Below are positions 4,723-62,146 of a stretch of DNA of 64,000 bases, piece by piece. The position numbers and the translations under genes were made by a program. Position 1 is the stretch's first letter. Each line of letters opens with the position of its first letter. The stretch is from contig OZ246404.1 in the NCBI GenBank assembly GCA_965230955.1, positions 988,291-1,052,290 on the forward strand. Reading direction: 5' to 3'. The notes below the pieces were generated by a model. It ran no database searches, was not told where the DNA came from, and was given only the letters and a program-made list of their open reading frames with translations. The stretch is from an uncultured Candidatus Saccharibacteria bacterium. GTDB taxonomy: Bacteria; Patescibacteriota; CALEFQ01.

Positions 4723-7023
4723 TTAAAGACGCTTTTGACCAGACTGGCTCGGCACCGATGCTTGGCCGCGGAGCGGCCAAGAGACAAAAAACGTTGAACC
4801 TTGATTCTCTTTTGAGGTAAACCAAATTTTGCCACCGGTTCGATCTACCATTTTTTTGGTGATATACAAACCCAAACCCTGTCCGGCCGGATCCATTTTA
4901 ATGGCATTATGGCCTCGAAAAAGTTTCACAAACATATCATCTTGATCAGATATGGAAATTCCGCAGCCGGTATCCGAAACGCTCAGCACAATCCGGTGAT
5001 TGGCCGGAGACAAACGAACGGTTATTTTCCCGCGGGGAGAAGTGTATTTGACGGCATTGGATATCAAATTTTGCAATACATGATTGTAAACACTGGCATC
5101 GATCTTGATCTCGGGCAAAGCCGGATCATAAATTTTATTCACGCTTAGCGACTTTGCCGATAATGCTGGCTGAAACTGACGAATGATCTCATCTGTCAGT
5201 GCCGGCAATCGAACATTTTCCGGCTTGATCGCCATAGTGCCTAATTCCAAGCGAGAAACTTCCAGCAAAGAATTTATCAGTTTGGCCATGCGCTGGCTCC
5301 CCAGTACTATTTCTTTGAGGTAATTTTTCTGATCGGGGGAAAAATTTGATACATCCGCCGACAACATTTCACCGTACCAATTGAGTGCAGTCAGCGGTCC
5401 ACGCAACTGGTGTGAAGCCAATGAGACAAATTCCGTTTTGGCCAGGTCGATTTCCCTGTCCCGGGTCACATCTCGAAAGACGCCCACGCAACCCCAGACC
5501 TTTCCCGACTCGGAAAAAATAGGAGAAGCACCGCCGGCAATAGGCAGTCTCGTTCCGTCCCTTCTGATAATTATCAAATGATTCGCCAATGGCGTCGTCT
5601 TGTCACGCTTGATCGCCTGGATCATGAAATCTTCGGCCGAGCGATTGGAATTTTCACGGACAAACACCAAAACCTTTCGGTGCGGCTGGCCGATGGCTTC
5701 GGCGGCTGACCATCCCGTCAGTTCCGACATGACACGATTAAACAAAATTATCTTCCCTTTGGCGTCACAGGCCACCACTCCGTCGCTGATCGCGCCGATG
5801 ATCGCTTTTTCTTTGGCGTTTCTGATAGACTCCAGCGCTTGTTCCAGATTTCGGCGGTCGGTGGTGTCATGGAAAAAACCCATTAGATATGAATGCCCGG
5901 CAATTTCGATCTTGGTGGAATTTATATCCGCGTAAAAAACACTGCCGTTTTTTCGCCGGACCGGTAAATCCGGCGCCAGGTGAATTATTCCCTTCATCTG
6001 CCTTTTGAATGCAGATATCACCCGAGGCAGATCTTTTTTGGGATGAATATCATCAACAGTTAGATGGCTGATTTCTTTTGTAGTATAGCCCAGCATTCGG
6101 GATATGGTCTTGTTCCCCAGGTAGAATTTCCGGCTTCCGGGATCGACGACGATAATTCCATCTTGCGCCTTATCAAAAATGGTTCGAAAACGTTCCTCGG
6201 ATGCTTTCAAAGCGCTCTCGGCTAATTTTTGCTTGGTAATGTCGCGGACAGTGGCCAGCAGAAAAGTTTCTTTCTCGATTTTGACCCTGGACAACAAAAC
6301 ATCGGCCGGGAATTCCTGGCCATCGATTCTTTTATGCACCCACTCGAAAAAATTGGAGCCTTGACGCATCGCCTTGTTTATCATGGCCTTGGCCTTATCG
6401 GGCGAAGATTTACCATCCGGCTGAAACCGAGGGGACAATTTCCAGGGAGCATAAGACAAAAACTCGGCTTCGCTTTTTGCTTTGAATATTTTGAGAGTGG
6501 CAGGATTTCCCGCAGTAAAATTCCAACTGGGCGGTTCCAATGTCATGATGGCATCATGAGAAGCAAAATACAGACTTTGATACTTGTGCACACTGGATTG
6601 TTCTTCACGTTCGGCTTTCCTCAGATTGGTAATGTCTTCGATCGCCAGCAGAAGAATCCGCGGTTTGGCCGGCAGACGGGGAATGCGTCGAGCATTTAAT
6701 AACATGGTTTTAGTCCCAATCTCCTCAAAATCATGCTCAATCTCGTAATTATTGAAGACACTGCTCTTGGTAATGATGTTTTTCAGCAATTGCCGCAGTT
6801 TGGGAATGTCCCATTGCCGATTGCCCAAATCATAAATAAAACGTCCGACTGTCTCCCGCGGCTTAACCCGGAAGGTTTGATAGAAAGACTTGTTGGCTGA
6901 AATTACTTTTAGCTTGTCATCCAGTACGATCAAGGGTTCGCGCACCGTTTCCACAATACCCGAAGCATATTCAAGAGCTTCTACTATCGATCCTGCTATC
7001 TCTTTTTTATAATTAAATTTCAT
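4723..7023 (-). CDS. multi-PAS sensor histidine kinase
   Basis: PAS repeats; H-box EFVSLASHQLRGPLTALNWYGEMLS; HATPase_c N/G boxes (NLISNAVKYT, DTGCGI, GLGLYITKKMV). Confidence 0.85.
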   Translation of the reverse strand: MKFNYKKEIAGSIVEALEYASGIVETVREPLIVLDDKLKVISANKSFYQTFRVKPRETVGRFIYDLGNRQWDIPKLRQLLKNIITKSSVFNNYEIEHDFEEIGTKTMLLNARRIPRLPAKPRILLLAIEDITNLRKAEREEQSSVHKYQSLYFASHDAIMTLEPPSWNFTAGNPATLKIFKAKSEAEFLSYAPWKLSPRFQPDGKSSPDKAKAMINKAMRQGSNFFEWVHKRIDGQEFPADVLLSRVKIEKETFLLATVRDITKQKLAESALKASEERFRTIFDKAQDGIIVVDPGSRKFYLGNKTISRMLGYTTKEISHLTVDDIHPKKDLPRVISAFKRQMKGIIHLAPDLPVRRKNGSVFYADINSTKIEIAGHSYLMGFFHDTTDRRNLEQALESIRNAKEKAIIGAISDGVVACDAKGKIILFNRVMSELTGWSAAEAIGQPHRKVLVFVRENSNRSAEDFMIQAIKRDKTTPLANHLIIIRRDGTRLPIAGGASPIFSESGKVWGCVGVFRDVTRDREIDLAKTEFVSLASHQLRGPLTALNWYGEMLSADVSNFSPDQKNYLKEIVLGSQRMAKLINSLLEVSRLELGTMAIKPENVRLPALTDEIIRQFQPALSAKSLSVNKIYDPALPEIKIDASVYNHVLQNLISNAVKYTSPRGKITVRLSPANHRIVLSVSDTGCGISISDQDDMFVKLFRGHNAIKMDPAGQGLGLYITKKMVDRTGGKIWFTSKENQGSTFFVSWPLRGQASVPSQSGQKRL

Positions 7024-13759: not shown

Positions 13760-13860
13760 TGTCTTTAGTCTTTGGTCTTTGGTCTTTAGTCGTTAGCCTC
13801 CGCAATTTTAACTGATGTTCTGGCGTCTAGCCAAAGACTAGAGACTAAAGACTAAAGACC
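13760..13860. repeat. (CAAAGAC)n inverted-repeat element
   Basis: GTCTTTAGTCTTTGGTCTTTGGTCTTTAGTC ... CTAGCCAAAGACTAGAGACTAAAGACTAAAGACC. Confidence 0.75.
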
Positions 13861-17352: not shown

Positions 17353-17787
17353 ATGTTTCCCTTCATCATTCCCGTCATCCCCTTGATCGTTTTCGTCATC
17401 GCGCAGGGGACAAAATTTTTGACCAAATCATTTAGCGGCTTCAGCTGGCGAAATGTTTCCGCCTATGGCGGAATGCCATCTTCCCATACGGCGATTACCG
17501 TCTCGATGGCTACACTGGCCGGACTGGTGGCCGGATTCAACTCCATTCCTTTTATGATCAGTGTCGTGCTGGCGGTCATTATCATCCGCGACGCCATGGG
17601 ATTTCGCATGAACTTGAGCGAGCAAGGCAAGGTTTTGAACATGCTGGTGAAAGAAGTGGACGGCCTGGATCGAAAAAAATACCCCAACCTGGGAGAACGG
17701 CTGGGACACACCGGCTGGGAAGTTTTTGTCGGCGCCCTGGTCGGCATCGGCGCAACATATTTGCTGTATTTGTGGCTGGTGGTTTGA
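17353..17787 (+). CDS. divergent PAP2 family membrane protein (DUF212)
   Basis: GGMPSSHTA motif diagnostic of the acid phosphatase/vanadium haloperoxidase-related DUF212 family. Confidence 0.7.
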   Translation: MFPFIIPVIPLIVFVIAQGTKFLTKSFSGFSWRNVSAYGGMPSSHTAITVSMATLAGLVAGFNSIPFMISVVLAVIIIRDAMGFRMNLSEQGKVLNMLVKEVDGLDRKKYPNLGERLGHTGWEVFVGALVGIGATYLLYLWLVV

Positions 17788-17805
17788 TGATAATCCCCAA
17801 CCAAT

Positions 17806-17838
17806 AAGAGCGGCGGCCTTAAGACCGCCGCTCTTTTA
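17806..17838 (+). terminator. hairpin with GGCCTTAAGACC core (PAP2 terminator and IS-associated palindrome)
   Basis: AAGAGCGGCGGCCTTAAGACCGCCGCTCTTTTAT; same loop core as the hairpins at 17929 and 18390. Confidence 0.5.
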
Positions 17839-17839
17839 T

Positions 17840-17928
17840 CGATGACGTTTCCGTTGCCGTTCAATATAGTTCCGCACCCGATCGATATGTTTTTCGGAAA
17901 TAGAAAATGCTGAAACTAATCCAAAACC
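17840..17928 (-). repeat. solo partial copy of the IS right end (tnpA 3' fragment plus hairpin)
   Basis: rc translation ...VSAFSISEKHIDRVRNYIERQRKRHR* is homologous to the tnpA C-terminus ...FTVSESQVNKVKNYINRQKNHHKK; followed by hairpin 17806-17838. Confidence 0.5.
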
Positions 17929-18419
17929 CAAAACAGGGGTGGCCTTAAGACCACCCCTGTTTTTTGTGATGATTTTTTTGTCGATTAATATAGTTTTTTA
18001 CTTTATTCACCTGCGATTCTGAAACCGTGAAGGCACTATATCCTCGTTGCCAATATAAAGAACATTTGGGATATAAAATCTTAACTTGATATGAAGCGTA
18101 ACCTTTGATTGCACTGACCGCGGCAGTTACACTAATTACTGACGGTATTATAAGTAACAGGTGGATATGATCTTCGGTATTGTTACAAGCGATAACTACA
18201 ATGCCTAATTATTTGGCTTTTTCCTCAACCAGCTTTTTTATCCCTCTCTCAATTTCCAGGTTCATCAACGGGAGACGATATTTCACTGTCCATACCAAAT
18301 GGTAATATAGCCGACAAATAGATCTAGACATAAAAAACCTCCATTTGGAGGGTTTTTTGATTATGATAAAATTATGATTATTCGTCATTGTGAGATGCGG
18401 CCTTAAGGCCGCATCTCAC
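17929..18419 (-). mobile_element. IS200/IS605-like element (tnpA only) bounded by GGCCTTAAGRCC subterminal hairpins
   Basis: Hairpins at 17929-17964 and 18390-18419 flank tnpA; a terminator-like hairpin at 18333-18358 abuts the tnpA start, as in IS200. Confidence 0.5.
17945..18331 (-). pseudogene. tnpA: IS200/IS605-family Y1 (HuH) transposase TnpA interrupted by one in-frame TAA (18209-18211)
   Basis: Conceptual translation MSRSICRLYYHLVWTVKYRLPLMNLEIERGIKKLVEEKAK*LGIVVIACNNTEDHIHLLLIIPSVISVTAAVSAIKGYASYQVKILYPKCSLYWQRGYSAFTVSESQVNKVKNYINRQKNHHKKQGWS; family hallmarks YHxVWxxKYR, HIHLL, KGxSS and RGY. Confidence 0.65.
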
Positions 18420-19738
18420 AGACGCATCTGCATGTGGGATCGCACCGCCGCCCGATCATCCCACGGAATCCGTTTCCCCGCCGGCCCCATGATCACGGTC
18501 TCACAGCCTTTGCCGGTAATCAAAACAATATCGCCTGCTTGCGCTTCGCTGAGAGCTTTTTTTATCGCCTGTTCCCGGTCGAGGATCCGCCAGGCGTTTT
18601 TGTTTTCTTCTTTGCCCGCCTGAAGCGCGCCGGCAAAAACGTCGTCGATGATTTTCTGGGGCGATTCGTCATACGGATCTTCATTGGTCACAATCACCAG
18701 GTCGGCCAGTCGGCCGGCAGTCATTCCCAGTTTGGGGCGTTTTTGTTTGTCGCGTCCACCGCCTTGCGAGCCGAGAATGGACCAGAGTTTCCCTTTGACA
18801 AAAGGTTTGACCGCTTTTAAAGCATTGTCCAAGCCGTTGGGTGTATGGGCATAGTCAACGATCACCGTGAAAGGTTTCTTGATATCGATAATTTCCATCC
18901 GACCGGCCGGCGGTACAACCCGGGCCAGCGCGGTGGATATTGTTTCCAGATCAATCTTTTGGGTGTAGGCAACCGCAATAGCGGCCAGCGTGTTATAGAC
19001 ATTGAATCGGCCAACCAGCGGAGTGCGAATCTCTATCTTGTTCCTGGTATCGCCAGACAATGTCTGAAGTAAAAAAGTTGTTCCGTCGGGAGTGAGCCTG
19101 ATATCCGTCGCCCATAATTGCTGTTTCCCTTTTCCGGCCGGTTTATCTAGGGTATAGACCAAGTCATTATCCACCCGGAAAGACAAAAAATAATCCGCCG
19201 CCGGGTCATCCCCATTGATCACGGAAAATTTTTCATGGCCAATTTTGGCTGAGCCGGCGACGCTTTTAAATAATTTTCCTTTGGCTTTTTTGTAATTCTC
19301 AAATGAGCCATGCGATTCGATATGTTCCGGCGTCAGATTGGTGAAAACCGCCACGTCATAATTGATGCCTACCTGTCGGTGCTGTTTTATTCCTTCCGAA
19401 GTGGTTTCGATGATCGCGTAATCACACTTCGCCCGCACCAGCCGGCGCAAAAATTTCTGCAGTTTGAATCGACCCTGCATCCCCTGTTTGGTCGTGTTGG
19501 GCCATTCTTTTTCGCCAATTTTAAAATTAATCGTGGTCGACATGCCGACTTTGTGTCCGGCTTGCTCCAAAATTTTGGCCAGCAAGTTGCAAGTGGTCGT
19601 CTTGCCATCAGTGCCGGTGACACCAATCACCGTCAGCTGTTCCGAGGGGAAACCATAAACTAGCGTAGCCAAAGAAGCCAAGCACCAGTGGTAGGCGGAG
19701 AGCAGCCAGGGAGGGATAGATTTTTTGATGGAGGACAT
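18416..19738 (-). CDS. Mur ligase family protein (MurE-like UDP-N-acetylmuramoyl-tripeptide ligase)
   Basis: Mur ligase ATP-binding motif GVTGTDGKTTT; central and C-terminal Mur ligase domains; exact substrate is not determinable. Confidence 0.7.
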   Translation of the reverse strand: MSSIKKSIPPWLLSAYHWCLASLATLVYGFPSEQLTVIGVTGTDGKTTTCNLLAKILEQAGHKVGMSTTINFKIGEKEWPNTTKQGMQGRFKLQKFLRRLVRAKCDYAIIETTSEGIKQHRQVGINYDVAVFTNLTPEHIESHGSFENYKKAKGKLFKSVAGSAKIGHEKFSVINGDDPAADYFLSFRVDNDLVYTLDKPAGKGKQQLWATDIRLTPDGTTFLLQTLSGDTRNKIEIRTPLVGRFNVYNTLAAIAVAYTQKIDLETISTALARVVPPAGRMEIIDIKKPFTVIVDYAHTPNGLDNALKAVKPFVKGKLWSILGSQGGGRDKQKRPKLGMTAGRLADLVIVTNEDPYDESPQKIIDDVFAGALQAGKEENKNAWRILDREQAIKKALSEAQAGDIVLITGKGCETVIMGPAGKRIPWDDRAAVRSHMQMRL

Positions 19739-23954: not shown

Positions 23955-24009
23955 CCGTCTTTAGTCATTAGTCTTTGGTCTTTGGCTAAAGACTAATGAC
24001 CAAAGACCC
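23955..24009. repeat. (CAAAGAC)n palindromic element
   Basis: Between uvrB and truB. Confidence 0.7.
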
Positions 24010-24018
24010 TTATATAAT

Positions 24019-24954
24019 ATGCTCGGCTTCATCAATCTCAACAAGCCCGCCGGCATCACCTCGCACGGCGCGGCAGAAAAAGTGAAAAAAATCACCGGCA
24101 TGCACCGCGTCGGCCACGCCGGCACGCTCGATCCTTTCGCGACCGGAGTGTTGGTCGTGGCCCTCGGCAAAGCCACCAAACTGGTGGAGTATTTACGCAA
24201 AGATGATAAAGAATACGAAGCCGTGATCTGCCTGGGCGCCACCAGCGATACTTACGACGGCACCGGCCAGATGACGGAAACTCCCCCGCCGGTCCCGGTC
24301 CCCAGCGGCGCCCAGATCAATTCTCTGCTCCAGCAATTTACCGGCGAGATCACGCAACAGCCGCCGAAATTTTCAGCGATAAAAATTCACGGCACGCCGG
24401 CGTATAAACTGGCTCGGGCGGGTGAAGAAGTGGAGTTGGCGCCCCGACAGATCACCATCCATTCGATCAAACTGACCGAATACCGCTCGCCGTTGGTGAC
24501 AATAAAAGTTCATTGCTCCGCCGGAACCTATATTCGTTCCCTGGCTTATGATATCGGACAGCGCTTGAAAACCGGTGCCTATCTCGCCGCCCTGCATCGC
24601 ACCCAAGCCGGCATATTTTCGATCAAAGATTCGGTGGATCTGGCGGCGCTAACCACCGACAACTGGAAAAACTATCTTCTCCCCCCTATGACCGGTATCG
24701 CTCATTTCGCCAGTTACGAAACAACCGACGAAGAGGCCGACCGCCTGAAACGCGGACTGAAAGTCAAACCGCCAATACCGCTCGGCCCAGGCAACATCGC
24801 CCTGATGTCGCCGACCAAGGAACTGCTCGGCATCGGCGAATATGATTCCGCGGAAGGACTGCTCCGCCCCACCAAAGTAATCGCCGAATCAGAGGTCAAA
24901 AAATCCGAAATCCAAAATCAGAAATCCGAAACAAATCCAAAATCAGAAATCTAA
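24019..24954 (+). CDS. truB: tRNA pseudouridine(55) synthase TruB
   Basis: HAGTLDPFATGVLVVALGKATKL catalytic-Asp motif; PUA-like C-terminus plus a repeat-derived KSE-rich tail. Confidence 0.85.
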   Translation: MLGFINLNKPAGITSHGAAEKVKKITGMHRVGHAGTLDPFATGVLVVALGKATKLVEYLRKDDKEYEAVICLGATSDTYDGTGQMTETPPPVPVPSGAQINSLLQQFTGEITQQPPKFSAIKIHGTPAYKLARAGEEVELAPRQITIHSIKLTEYRSPLVTIKVHCSAGTYIRSLAYDIGQRLKTGAYLAALHRTQAGIFSIKDSVDLAALTTDNWKNYLLPPMTGIAHFASYETTDEEADRLKRGLKVKPPIPLGPGNIALMSPTKELLGIGEYDSAEGLLRPTKVIAESEVKKSEIQNQKSETNPKSEI

Positions 24955-59335: not shown

Positions 59336-59380
59336 AGAAAAACCGCCCGCCCGCCGAATCGGCGGGTGGGCGGTTTTTTT
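59336..59380. terminator. bidirectional intrinsic terminator (CCGCCGAATCGGCGG family)
   Basis: AAAAACCGCCCGCCCGCCGAATCGGCGGGTGGGCGGTTTTTTT between convergent genes. Confidence 0.7.
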
Positions 59381-62119: not shown

Positions 62120-62146
62120 AAAAAAACCCGCCGAATCGGCGGGACG
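62120..62146 (-). terminator. intrinsic terminator downstream of tRNA-Glu (CCGCCGAATCGGCGG family)
   Basis: CCCGCCGAATCGGCGGG preceded by AAAAAAA on the + strand, giving a U-run on the minus strand. Confidence 0.55.

What the first reader, a model, noticed from the sequence alone, without database searches (positions are those of the whole stretch)
17806..18419. IS200/IS605-type element with a single-nonsense tnpA, GGCCTTAAGRCC hairpin ends, and an adjacent solo right-end remnant
The minus strand 18331-17945 encodes a full-length Y1 HuH transposase with one in-frame TAA at 18209-18211; the sequence is given in the features. The ATG abuts a terminator-like hairpin (18333-18358), matching the IS200 arrangement that blocks read-in transcription. 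Hairpins at 17929-17964 and 18390-18419 share the loop core GGCCTTAAG(A/G)CC and bracket the element. A third hairpin with the same core (17806-17838) follows an 89-bp segment that is a diverged duplicate of the tnpA 3' end (SISEKHIDRVRNYIERQRKRHR versus TVSESQVNKVKNYINRQKNHHKK). That arrangement is a solo right end, or else tandem insertion into a previous copy. The left hairpin provides the stop codon of the Mur-ligase gene, so the insertion reshaped a cell-wall gene's 3' end. The TAA could be a genuine inactivating mutation, a sequencing error or a regulatory recoding site.
Basis: partly seen in the sequence, partly recalled or inferred. Interest (0 to 1): 0.6.

Follow-up and report, generated by a model that had tools for sequence, protein, structure and literature searches.

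The report
Overwritten, inactivated IS200-like transposase module
This is a small IS200-like transposase module wedged between two housekeeping genes of a tiny-genome (Patescibacteria-type) bacterium; here a second, diverged copy has overwritten most of the older one and was then killed by a stop codon, so it is an ordinary decaying mobile element with an unusually readable history.

Summary
The minus strand 18331-17945 encodes a full-length Y1 HuH transposase (Pfam Y1_Tnp E 4.6e-25; NCBIfam IS200/IS605 81 bits, cut-off 55) with one in-frame TAA at 18209-18211. Three palindromic hairpins share GGCCTTAAGRCC. A 25-codon diverged copy of the gene's 3' end precedes the third hairpin. Five related metagenomic genomes carry a Y1 gene with the same hairpins, promoter-like spacer and ribosome-site hairpin at the same position, between the Mur-ligase and DUF212 genes. 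Three other relatives have an empty site. The remnant is about 95% identical to that resident gene. The full-length copy is only 45-49% identical to resident copies but 87% identical to a copy found next to lexA elsewhere. So a foreign family member overwrote the resident gene and later suffered a nonsense mutation, probably GAA to TAA. The same TAA appears in independent assemblies, and TAA is this genome's commonest stop. The protein's motifs (DHIH, WQ, YINRQKNHH) place it in TnpAY1 subclass 1.2, not classical IS200 or RAYT. No hairpin copies occur elsewhere in the 64 kb. Verdict: a new member of a known kind, of moderate-to-low interest.

The parts
17788..18442 (-). Whole composite module (resident module plus overwriting copy) between the DUF212 stop and the point where the Mur-ligase gene stops matching empty-site relatives.
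   Evidence: Alignments of filled sites (window, L093, L088) with the empty site L095: homology ends after GTG at 18443 on the left and at the DUF212 stop (17785-17787) on the right.
18421..18442 (-). Left linker of the module. It encodes the last seven Mur-ligase codons (SHMQMRL).
   Evidence: This stretch is absent from the empty site L095, whose Mur tail is KKIVKS*. It is homologous to the same stretch in L087 and L093.
18389..18420 (.). Left-end hairpin A, a perfect 16+16-nt palindrome TGTGAGATGCGGCCTT/AAGGCCGCATCTCACA. It contains the Mur-ligase TGA (18416-18418) and is of the resident type.
   Evidence: -17.8 kcal/mol, z -8.3. The 28-nt core TGAGATGCGGCCTTAAGGCCGCATCTCA is identical in L087 and L093. 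Covariation across 8 hairpins.
18360..18388 (-). Promoter-like spacer ATGACG-17 nt-CATAAT.
   Evidence: 9 of 12 matches, not above the shuffle expectation. The stretch AATTTYATYATAATC is conserved in L085, L087, L088 and L093.
18332..18357 (-). 5'-leader hairpin AAAAAACC(C)TCC-AAAT-GGAGGTTTTTT. The Shine-Dalgarno GGAGG sits in the 3' arm, six nt before the ATG, and the hairpin is terminator-like on both strands.
   Evidence: The stem is kept and the loop varies in L085, L087, L088 and L093.
18212..18331 (-). tnpA' codons 1-40 (the overwriting allele).
   Evidence: Nucleotide identity to L087 drops from about 95% in the leader to 50-63% from the ATG onward.
18209..18211 (-). In-frame TAA at codon 41, a nonsense mutation.
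   Evidence: Homologues have E, D, K, G or I at this position. Present in independent assemblies. TAA is the commonest stop in the window.
17945..18208 (-). tnpA' codons 42-128 plus stop. Carries HuH (DHIH), WQ and the Y motif YINRQKNHH. The stop TAA is supplied by the TTAA loop of hairpin B.
   Evidence: 87% identical in amino acids and nucleotides to L005; dN/dS 0.09.
17930..17963 (.). Right-end hairpin B of the overwriting copy (stem CAGGGGTGG).
   Evidence: The same stem base is found in L005 (GGGGTGGCC...GGCCACCCC).
17908..17929 (-). Tail after hairpin B (TTTTGGGTTTTGGATTA, possibly also GTTTCA) and the junction with the older gene.
   Evidence: The direct repeat D2 ends at 17917. Homology to the resident gene of L087 resumes at GCATTTTC (17907 downward).
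17836..17907 (-). Remnant of the original resident tnpA (last ~23 codons, AFSISEKHIDRVRNYIERQRKRHR, plus TAA).
   Evidence: tblastn E 1.6e-5. 95% amino-acid identity to the L087 tail (20 of 21) and 38/41 and 50/60 nt identity.
17806..17835 (.). Right-end hairpin C of the original resident copy (stem AGAGCGGCGG).
   Evidence: The same stem is in the right-end hairpin of L093.
17788..17805 (-). Tail after hairpin C, running up to the convergent DUF212 stop codon.

Best explanation
The locus is a compact IS200-like single-gene module. Read along the minus strand it consists of:
- a left linker and a subterminal hairpin;
- a weak promoter;
- a leader hairpin that both stops incoming transcription and hides the ribosome-binding site;
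- a Y1 HuH transposase gene;
- a right subterminal hairpin and a short tail.

The transposase belongs to TnpAY1 subclass 1.2. Modules of this kind occupy one precise site, between the convergent Mur-ligase and DUF212 genes, in a clade of small-genome Patescibacteria-type bacteria. The site is filled in some lineages and empty in others.

In this genome the history has three steps.
1. A resident module of the L087/L093 type was present.
2. A diverged family member (87% identical to a copy that sits next to lexA in another metagenome) replaced the resident gene from about the start codon to about codon 99. It brought its own 3' end, hairpin and tail. The resident left end and the resident last ~23-25 codons plus hairpin were left in place.
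3. Codon 41 of the incoming gene mutated to TAA, most simply from GAA, so no full-length transposase can now be made.

**Shown:** the anatomy, the synteny, the empty sites, the mosaic origin and the nonsense codon.

**Inferred:** the hairpins are the transposase's single-strand DNA recognition sites, as in IS608 and ISDra2. The replacement occurred either by transposase-mediated insertion into the resident copy followed by deletion between the two left ends, or by recombination anchored in the conserved leader with an illegitimate right-hand joint.
For: **Protein identity**
- Pfam Y1_Tnp full length and NCBIfam IS200/IS605 above cut-off.
- The best solved relatives are ISDra2 and IS608 TnpA, with HuH and the catalytic Tyr aligned.
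- The motifs DHIH, WQ and Y---Q--HH match subclass 1.2 as tabulated in PMC6006769.

**IS200-like design**
- A terminal hairpin, a promoter-like box and a hairpin holding the Shine-Dalgarno sequence parallel the IS200 left end described in PMC4513863.

**Hairpins belong to the module**
- They flank the Y1 gene in the related filled loci and are absent from the three empty sites. Both ends are seen in L085, L088 and L093; L087's right hairpin has lost four bases of its core; L005 shows only a right end, with an extended top in place of TTAA.
- The top GCGGCCTTAAGGCCGC is conserved while the lower stem covaries: 7 of 14 pairs have double changes, 94.5% of cells pair, and 0 of 500 shuffles reach this.

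**One site, filled or empty**
- Filled: L085/L086, L087, L088, L093/L094.
- Empty: L095, L092 and L091.
- L095 is close to filled genomes (DUF212 91% identical to L087 and L093).

**Mosaic origin**
- Flanking proteins are 80-88% identical between the window and the filled genomes, whereas the full-length copy is 45-49% identical to resident copies. The remnant is 95% identical to L087.
- The nucleotide identity profile drops at the ATG and recovers at 17907.

**The incoming allele is found elsewhere**
- L005 shows it next to lexA and a dinB-like ORF.

**Recent inactivation**
- dN/dS against L005 is 0.09, so the gene was under selection until recently.
- The TAA is reproducible, and TAA is a normal stop here.

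**Foreign composition**
- All alleles have 37-47% GC against 51-56% in the flanks.
Against: - No second copy of the gene or of the hairpin exists in the 64 kb, so multi-copy behaviour in this genome is unproven.
- Subclass 1.2 was described as lacking IS properties and hairpins (PMC6006769).
- The left end of the incoming allele was never seen, because L005 is truncated. Whether it arrived as a complete element is therefore unknown.
- Occupation of one exact site in several genomes could equally reflect vertical inheritance of a useful gene.
- The right-hand tails after hairpins B and C resemble each other (12 of 17 nt) and share a GGTC variant, yet differ from the tails in L093, L087 and L088. 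The simple three-step history does not explain this.
- Cleavage and guide sequences were not identified.
Confidence: 0.68

Rival explanations
1. A domesticated, vertically inherited Y1 gene, RAYT-like in logic. On this view the module is a fixed host gene kept for a host function, such as processing single-stranded DNA hairpins. The flanking hairpins are its cognate sites and also serve as terminators. This genome has simply lost the function.
For: - The same exact position is occupied in five related assemblies, four of which carry a complete ORF with intact HuH and Tyr motifs (L086 duplicates L085; the gene in L094 was not read).
- Pairwise dN/dS among resident copies is 0.09-0.17.
- Subclass 1.2 is described as low-copy and not IS-like.
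- Another pair of relatives, L006 and L007, are both next to a Dtd gene.
- Relatives are commonly flanked by arrays of matching palindromes.
Against: - Resident copies are only 55-65% identical where flanking proteins are 80-87% identical, and their synonymous differences are saturated (pS 0.71-0.73 against 0.45-0.65 for the flanks).
- All alleles keep a foreign-looking GC content.
- The close relative L095 has an empty site with an ordinary terminator.
- The incoming allele occurs in a different context in L005.
- In this genome the gene was overwritten and then inactivated, so it is dispensable.
- There is no hit to the RAYT model NF047646 and no Y---NP motif.
- No hairpin dispersal is seen in 64 kb.
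Confidence: 0.2
2. The hairpins are ordinary intrinsic terminators or genome-wide REP elements of the host, unrelated to the transposase gene, which merely landed between them.
For: - Hairpins B and C have T-runs and sit at the ends of convergent genes.
- Hairpin A follows the Mur-ligase gene.
- Other gene ends in the window carry GC-rich hairpins.
Against: - The three empty sites L095, L092 and L091 lack this hairpin. L095 and L091 have an unrelated terminator and L092 has none.
- The 16-nt top is conserved on both sides of the gene and across genomes while the lower stem covaries.
- Hairpin A has no T-run.
- The stem of hairpin B travels with its allele, because the same stem base is in L005.
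- There is no other copy in 64 kb.
Confidence: 0.05
3. The TAA is a sequencing or assembly error, or a programmed recoding site, and a full-length transposase is still made.
For: The two halves of the gene are in the same frame and every catalytic motif is intact. dN/dS against L005 is low.
Against: - The TAA is identical in the window and in two independently assembled runs.
- TAA ends 26 of 40 long ORFs in the window.
- Both shifted frames hit stops within one to ten codons, as read directly from the sequence.
- No known bacterial code reads TAA as sense (general knowledge).
- No conserved structure or motif follows the stop.
Confidence: 0.04

Closest known systems
IS200 (Salmonella/Enterobacteriaceae), the single-gene founder of the IS200/IS605 family
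   Same: - A single Y1 HuH transposase gene with no tnpB.
- A left end with a terminal hairpin that blocks incoming transcription, a weak promoter, and a leader stem-loop that hides the Shine-Dalgarno sequence (PMC4513863).
- Very small size: the un-nested module in L093 was judged by eye to be roughly 0.5 kb (not computed); IS200 is 707 bp.
- Long persistence at fixed chromosomal sites with little evidence of movement.
   Different: - The transposase has subclass 1.2 motifs (WQ, Y---Q--HH) rather than subclass 1.1 motifs (W[TS], Y[IV]ENQ).
- The end hairpins are perfect palindromes with a conserved GCGGCCTTAAGGCCGC top.
- One leader hairpin does both jobs, terminator and ribosome-site mask.
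- No antisense RNA was identified.
- The host is a Patescibacteria-type genome.
IS608 / ISDra2 TnpA (solved structures 2a6m, 2vhg, 2xm3)
   Same: They are the best sequence matches among solved structures (E 8e-14 to 5e-13), with HuH and the catalytic tyrosine aligned. The family rule is that subterminal hairpins at both ends are recognised as single-stranded DNA, with linkers running to the cleavage sites (PMC3597680).
   Different: - Those elements also carry tnpB.
- Their hairpins are imperfect.
[quoted passage not shown] Here the upper bounds are about 22 nt on the left and about 18 nt on the right, and the cleavage and guide sequences are unknown.
TnpAY1 subclass 1.2 (Quentin, Siguier, Chandler, Fichant 2018, PMC6006769)
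   Same: The HuH motif DH[IV]H, the W motif WQ and the Y motif Y---Q--HH all match (DHIH, YWQRGY, YINRQKNHH). The family is also low-copy. In the metagenome set, 76 of 80 relatives carry the same Y motif and 80 of 80 carry WQ.
   Different: - The subclass was described as lacking IS properties and hairpins and as mostly cyanobacterial or Bacteroidetes.
- Here the gene has IS200-like ends, presence/absence polymorphism and a nested replacement.
- The ~30-residue C-terminal tail domain of the subclass is missing: the protein ends six residues after HH, in the hairpin.
RAYT / TnpA-REP with REP or REPIN sequences (REPtron)
   Same: A low-copy Y1 gene flanked on both sides by matching palindromic hairpins at a conserved chromosomal position. 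More distant relatives of this gene are flanked by arrays of such palindromes, which recur nearby.
   Different: - No match to the RAYT model NF047646, and Y---Q rather than Y---NP.
- No dispersal of the hairpin in 64 kb.
- The alleles turn over and the site can be empty.

Membership tests
IS200/IS605 family (ISfinder sense) | Encodes a Y1 HuH transposase (Pfam PF01797 / NCBIfam NF033573) with a HuH motif and a catalytic Tyr. | tested here: met
   PF01797 at 88.5 bits (cut-off 23) and NF033573 at 81.1 bits (cut-off 55). DHIH and the Tyr of YINRQ align to ISDra2 and IS608. The gene is broken by one TAA.
IS200/IS605 family (ISfinder sense) | Subterminal hairpins of similar sequence at both ends, with no terminal inverted repeats. 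| tested here: met
   Hairpins with the same 12-16-nt top lie upstream and downstream of the gene in the window, L085, L088 and L093; L087's downstream hairpin has a 4-nt deletion in the top. The stems covary.
IS200/IS605 family (ISfinder sense) | Mobility: several copies per genome, or the same element at different sites, plus empty sites. | tested here: inconclusive
   Only one locus in 64 kb. Empty sites exist in L095, L092 and L091. An 87% relative sits next to lexA in L005. A nested second copy is present here. The rest of the source genome could not be searched.
IS200/IS605 family (ISfinder sense) | Insertion 3' of a fixed tetra- or pentanucleotide; guide and cleavage-site complementarity; left linker longer than right. 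| not tested
   Boundaries are known only to within a few bases from the filled-versus-empty comparison. No cleavage data.
TnpAY1 subclass 1.1 (classical IS200 transposases) | W motif W[TS] and Y motif Y[IV]ENQ (PMC6006769, Table 1). | tested here: not met
   The protein has WQ and YINRQKNHH.
TnpAY1 subclass 1.2 | HuH DH[IV]H, W motif WQ, Y motif Y---Q--HH. | tested here: met
   DHIH, YWQRGY and YINRQKNHH. Assignment is by motif only; the authors' own profiles were not available.
TnpAY1 subclass 1.2 | Conserved C-terminal tail domain of about 30 residues. | tested here: not met
   The ORF ends six residues after HH, at the TAA in the hairpin loop. The resident orthologues end equally early.
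TnpAY1 subclass 1.2 | Low copy number, with no IS-type end hairpins and no REP. | tested here: not met
   Low copy is consistent with one locus in 64 kb. However, matching hairpins flank the gene here and in 49 of 63 relatives, against 12 of 70 control windows.
RAYT / TnpA-REP (class 2) | Y motif Y---NP; match to NCBIfam NF047646. | tested here: not met
   No hit for the window protein. Relatives score 25-51 bits against a cut-off of 80. The motif is Y---Q.
RAYT / TnpA-REP (class 2) | Cognate REP or REPIN sequences dispersed through the genome. | tested here: not met
   GGCCTTAAGRCC occurs only at this locus in 64 kb. The other ~1.07 Mb of the genome was not available.

The most novel reading that the evidence does not exclude
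Subclass 1.2 Y1 modules may be a distinct class of site-locked single-strand DNA elements. They would stay at one chromosomal address, replace one another there by hairpin-guided exchange, and use their hairpins as docking points where other DNA can be captured.

Four observations are compatible with this:
- In L085 a PPDK_N gene sits between the Y1 right-end hairpin and a further family hairpin.
- The left arm of the hairpin is tandemly duplicated in L085 and L088.
- The hairpin top swaps between TTAA and GCCGAATCGGC forms.
- Family-wide, these genes are flanked by matching palindrome arrays, although the literature lists the subclass as having none.
Probability: 0.1. Interest if true: 0.6.

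Novelty: new member of a known kind. Interest (0 to 1): 0.33.

Why it matters
For genome annotation, this should be labelled a pseudogenised IS200-family (TnpAY1 subclass 1.2) module with a nested remnant. It is not an active insertion sequence and not a recoded gene. The Mur-ligase C-terminal tail should be recognised as element-derived.

For the biology of HuH transposases, the locus gives a clean natural series: empty site, intact resident module, then overwritten and inactivated module. That series shows a subclass described as 'not IS-like' carrying IS200-type ends and turning over at a single chromosomal address in very small genomes. It makes one question testable, namely whether subclass 1.2 proteins act on flanking hairpins. 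The intact L093 allele and the hairpin oligonucleotides are obvious substrates for that test.

The result does not change any major concept.

Tried and rejected
- **Viral contigs.** A search with the protein found 45 pattern hits but no relative.
- **Word-index protein search.** The joined protein found only one 31% hit. The exhaustive search was needed.
- **N-terminal fragment.** An exact look-up of the 40-aa fragment found nothing on record.
- **RAYT/REPtron membership.** Rejected: no NF047646 hit, no Y---NP motif, no dispersal.
- **Stop-codon reassignment.** Rejected: TAA ends 26 of 40 ORFs.
- **Frameshift rescue.** Rejected by reading the sequence. The two halves are already in frame, and both shifted frames stop within one to ten codons.
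- **Contig break as a sign of a repeat.** The Logan contig that ends exactly at hairpin A was considered as evidence for a multi-copy repeat. It was rejected because a 32-nt perfect palindrome breaks a k=31 assembly graph by itself.
- **Low GC as a sign of recency.** Rejected, because all alleles, including resident ones, are low-GC.
- **N-terminal extension.** The in-frame upstream ATG at 18386-18388 would add 19 residues. Rejected as the start because it is out of frame in L085 and absent in L088.
- **Known RNA families.** Rfam gave nothing at gathering score for the leader or the hairpins.
- **Guide and cleavage sequences.** Picking them by eye was not convincing and is not claimed.
Full report
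**1. What is in the sequence**

The minus strand from 18331 to 17945 reads as a 128-codon gene with a single internal TAA at 18209-18211 and a terminal TAA at 17945-17947. Joined across the internal stop, the protein matches Pfam Y1_Tnp over the full profile (E 4.6e-25, 88.5 bits, cut-off 23). It also matches the NCBIfam equivalog for IS200/IS605 transposases (81.1 bits, cut-off 55). The nearest solved structures are the ISDra2 and IS608 transposases, with the HuH motif (DHIH) and the tyrosine of YINRQ aligned.

Three palindromic hairpins lie at 17806-17835 (C), 17930-17963 (B) and 18389-18420 (A). All three share GGCCTTAAGRCC. These are the only occurrences in 64 kb, where 0.58 are expected by chance. 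As single-stranded DNA they fold far better than shuffled sequence.

A fourth hairpin (stem 18338-18351) carries GGAGG six bases before the ATG and has T-runs on both strands. A promoter-like ATGACG-17-CATAAT lies between this hairpin and hairpin A.

Downstream of hairpin B, 17839-17913 encodes a diverged copy of the last 25 residues of the protein (tblastn E 1.6e-5). A 47-nt direct repeat covers hairpin plus tail in both places. The Mur-ligase TGA (18416-18418) lies in the stem of hairpin A.

Two independent Logan assemblies agree with the window base for base over the stretches they cover (L002 17320-18418, L003 to 18352), including the TAA.

**2. The decisive context: the same module at the same address in relatives**

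An exhaustive protein search found 4854 relatives, the closest single-domain one at 48% identity (P0003). Looking up where P0003 and its two nearest relatives are encoded gave a surprise. All three sit between a Mur-ligase gene and a convergent DUF212 gene, followed by DUF6580 and DUF4430, exactly as in the window (L085/L086, L087, L088). A further case lies on a 96-kb scaffold (L093/L094).

The related filled loci share these features:
- an upstream hairpin topped by GCGGCCTTAAGGCCGC;
- the conserved spacer AATTTYATYATAATC;
- a CCCTCC/GGAGG leader hairpin;
- the Y1 gene;
- a downstream hairpin with the same top, except that L087's downstream hairpin has lost four bases of it.

L086 and L094 duplicate L085 and L093; L094's sequence was not read.

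Across eight such hairpins, seven of 14 stem pairs show compensatory double changes and 94.5% of cells pair. No shuffle of 500 reaches this.

Three other relatives have the two housekeeping genes back to back without any of this:
- L092 has a 40-nt AT-rich spacer.
- L091 has an unrelated 355-aa gene.
- L095 has a 61-nt spacer containing an ordinary terminator.

L095 is not distant. Its DUF212 protein is 91% identical to those of the filled genomes L087 and L093.

Aligning filled sites with the empty one places the module's outer limits at window 18442 on the left and about 17788 on the right. The last seven Mur-ligase codons therefore lie in module-derived sequence. This is true of all the filled genomes, not just this one.

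**3. The window carries two generations of the module**

| Comparison | Identity |
|---|---|
| Flanking proteins, window vs filled relatives | 80-88% (dN/dS about 0.1, dS 0.7-1.5) |
| Remnant 17836-17907 vs 3' end of the L087 gene | 95% amino acid; 38/41 and 50/60 nt |
| Hairpin A plus leader vs L087 | about 95% nt |
| Full-length gene vs resident genes | 45-49% amino acid; 50-63% nt, dropping at the ATG |
| Full-length gene vs L005 | 87% amino acid and nt |

The stem of hairpin C is that of the L093 right-end hairpin. In L005 the gene lies just upstream of lexA and a dinB-like ORF, and its hairpin has the same stem base as hairpin B.

The order of events is therefore as follows. A resident module of the L087/L093 type was present first. 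The gene body was then overwritten by a foreign family member that brought its own 3' end, hairpin B and tail. The resident left end and the resident last ~23-25 codons plus hairpin C survived.

The upstream hairpin, however, belongs to the older copy.

**4. The TAA**

Homologues have E, D, K, G or I at codon 41. GAA to TAA is the simplest change. TAA is the commonest stop in the window, ending 26 of 40 long ORFs. The two halves are in frame and both shifted frames stop quickly, so only stop read-through could restore the protein, and nothing suggests that. Against L005 the gene shows dN/dS 0.09 over 79 codons. It was therefore under purifying selection for most of its history, and the inactivation is recent.

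**5. How it most likely works**

The design parallels the IS200 left end. IS200 has a terminal hairpin that is also a terminator, a weak promoter, and a leader stem-loop that hides the Shine-Dalgarno sequence (PMC4513863). In the IS200/IS605 family the transposase dimer binds subterminal hairpins on single-stranded DNA. It cleaves at sites set by short guide sequences, and the linkers between hairpin and cleavage site have characteristic lengths (PMC3597680).

I infer the same for this module for three reasons:
- the hairpins come and go with the gene;
- their top is conserved on both sides of the gene;
- hairpin B travels with its allele.

This step is inferred, not shown.

The replacement could have happened in two ways. 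The first is insertion of a complete incoming element into the resident gene, followed by deletion between the two left ends. The second is recombination anchored in the conserved leader with an illegitimate right-hand joint. The data do not decide between them.

**6. Which family**

The motifs DHIH, WQ and YINRQKNHH fit TnpAY1 subclass 1.2 of Quentin et al. (PMC6006769). They do not fit classical subclass 1.1 (W[TS], Y[IV]ENQ) or the RAYT class (Y---NP; no NF047646 hit). That subclass was described as low-copy, without IS properties or hairpins, and mainly cyanobacterial or Bacteroidetes.

Here it has IS200-like ends, a filled/empty polymorphism and a nested replacement. It lacks the subclass's C-terminal tail domain.

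All alleles keep 37-47% GC against 51-56% in the flanks. Resident alleles differ from each other more than the flanks do, at both amino-acid and synonymous sites. These points favour turnover of a mobile element over an anciently fixed host gene. The rival remains possible, and I give it 0.2.

**7. What remains unexplained**

The tails after hairpins B and C (TTTTGGGTTTTGGATTA and TTATTGGTTGGGGATTA) and a shared GGTC variant in the hairpin top resemble each other within this genome. They do not resemble the right-end tails of L093, L087 or L088. Local gene conversion between the two adjacent repeats is one possibility.

The rest of the source genome, a 1.14-Mb contig, could not be searched. 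The copy number there is unknown.

**8. Verdict**

The locus is a pseudogenised, nested IS200-family module of TnpAY1 subclass 1.2 at a site that such modules occupy recurrently or persistently in a Patescibacteria-type clade. It is a new member of a known kind. Interest is moderate to low (0.33). The family-level side observations are recorded separately under things noticed in passing.

Noticed in passing
Proteins P0002, P0004-P0013 and others (not in the window): About 35 of the 150 best relatives are 250-315-aa proteins with two complete Y1_Tnp domains. In the four whose sequences were read (P0002, P0004, P0005, P0007) each domain has its own HuH and Tyr motif; Pfam and NCBIfam report two stretches. 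Y1 transposases act as dimers with shared active sites, so these look like single-chain dimers. I did not find them mentioned in PMC6006769, which discarded 'unexpectedly long' proteins.
   Followed up: partly
Loci L006-L084 (metagenome relatives): Subclass-1.2-like Y1 genes are usually flanked by short GC-containing palindromes. 49 of 63 loci have them on both sides, against 12 of 70 control windows (2.9 and 2.1 per 250 nt, against 0.41 in controls). 37 of 63 have an upstream/downstream pair at least 75% identical, against 0 of 70 controls. In 17 of 39 loci similar hairpins recur more than 400 nt away. The literature table lists this subclass as having no REP.
   Followed up: partly
window 13760-13860 and 23957-24007; L005 1041-1117: Inverted arrays of a 7-nt unit (GTCTTTA/GTCTTTG, with partner CAAAGAC/TAAAGAC) sit in intergenic regions. 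One array is upstream of a truB-like ORF (24019-24954). In L005 the same motif is upstream of a dinB-like ORF. This may be a regulatory or repeat element shared by these organisms.
   Followed up: no
window 59338-59378 and 62125-62145; L005 231-265; L085 1504-1536: The motif GCCGAATCGGC (top of a GC-rich hairpin) occurs twice exactly at gene ends in the window. A near-identical GCCGAWTCGGC block replaces the TTAA top of the Y1-associated hairpin in L005 and L085.
   Followed up: partly
L085 474-1536; L089 2632-5623: The space between the Y1 right-end hairpin and DUF212 is variable. L085 holds a PPDK_N gene followed by a further family hairpin. L089 holds two more genes there, one of 316 aa and one with a PEP-utilizers domain.
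   Followed up: partly
L088 1960-2000; L085 455-490: The hairpin's left arm is tandemly duplicated: GGTGCGGCCCTAGA-like units three times in L088, and GGGAGGTGCGGCC twice in L085. These repeats encode repeated 'VRP' in the Mur-ligase tail and in the Y1 tail respectively.
   Followed up: no
L001 end (5320-5348) and L002 end; window 18389-18420: Logan contigs end exactly at the 32-nt perfect palindrome of hairpin A. This is an assembly-graph effect that could be mistaken for a repeat boundary.
   Followed up: yes
L006 and L007: Two relatives at 44-47% identity both lie immediately downstream of a D-aminoacyl-tRNA deacylase-like gene. This is a second example of a Y1 gene of this subclass at a conserved address.
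   Followed up: no
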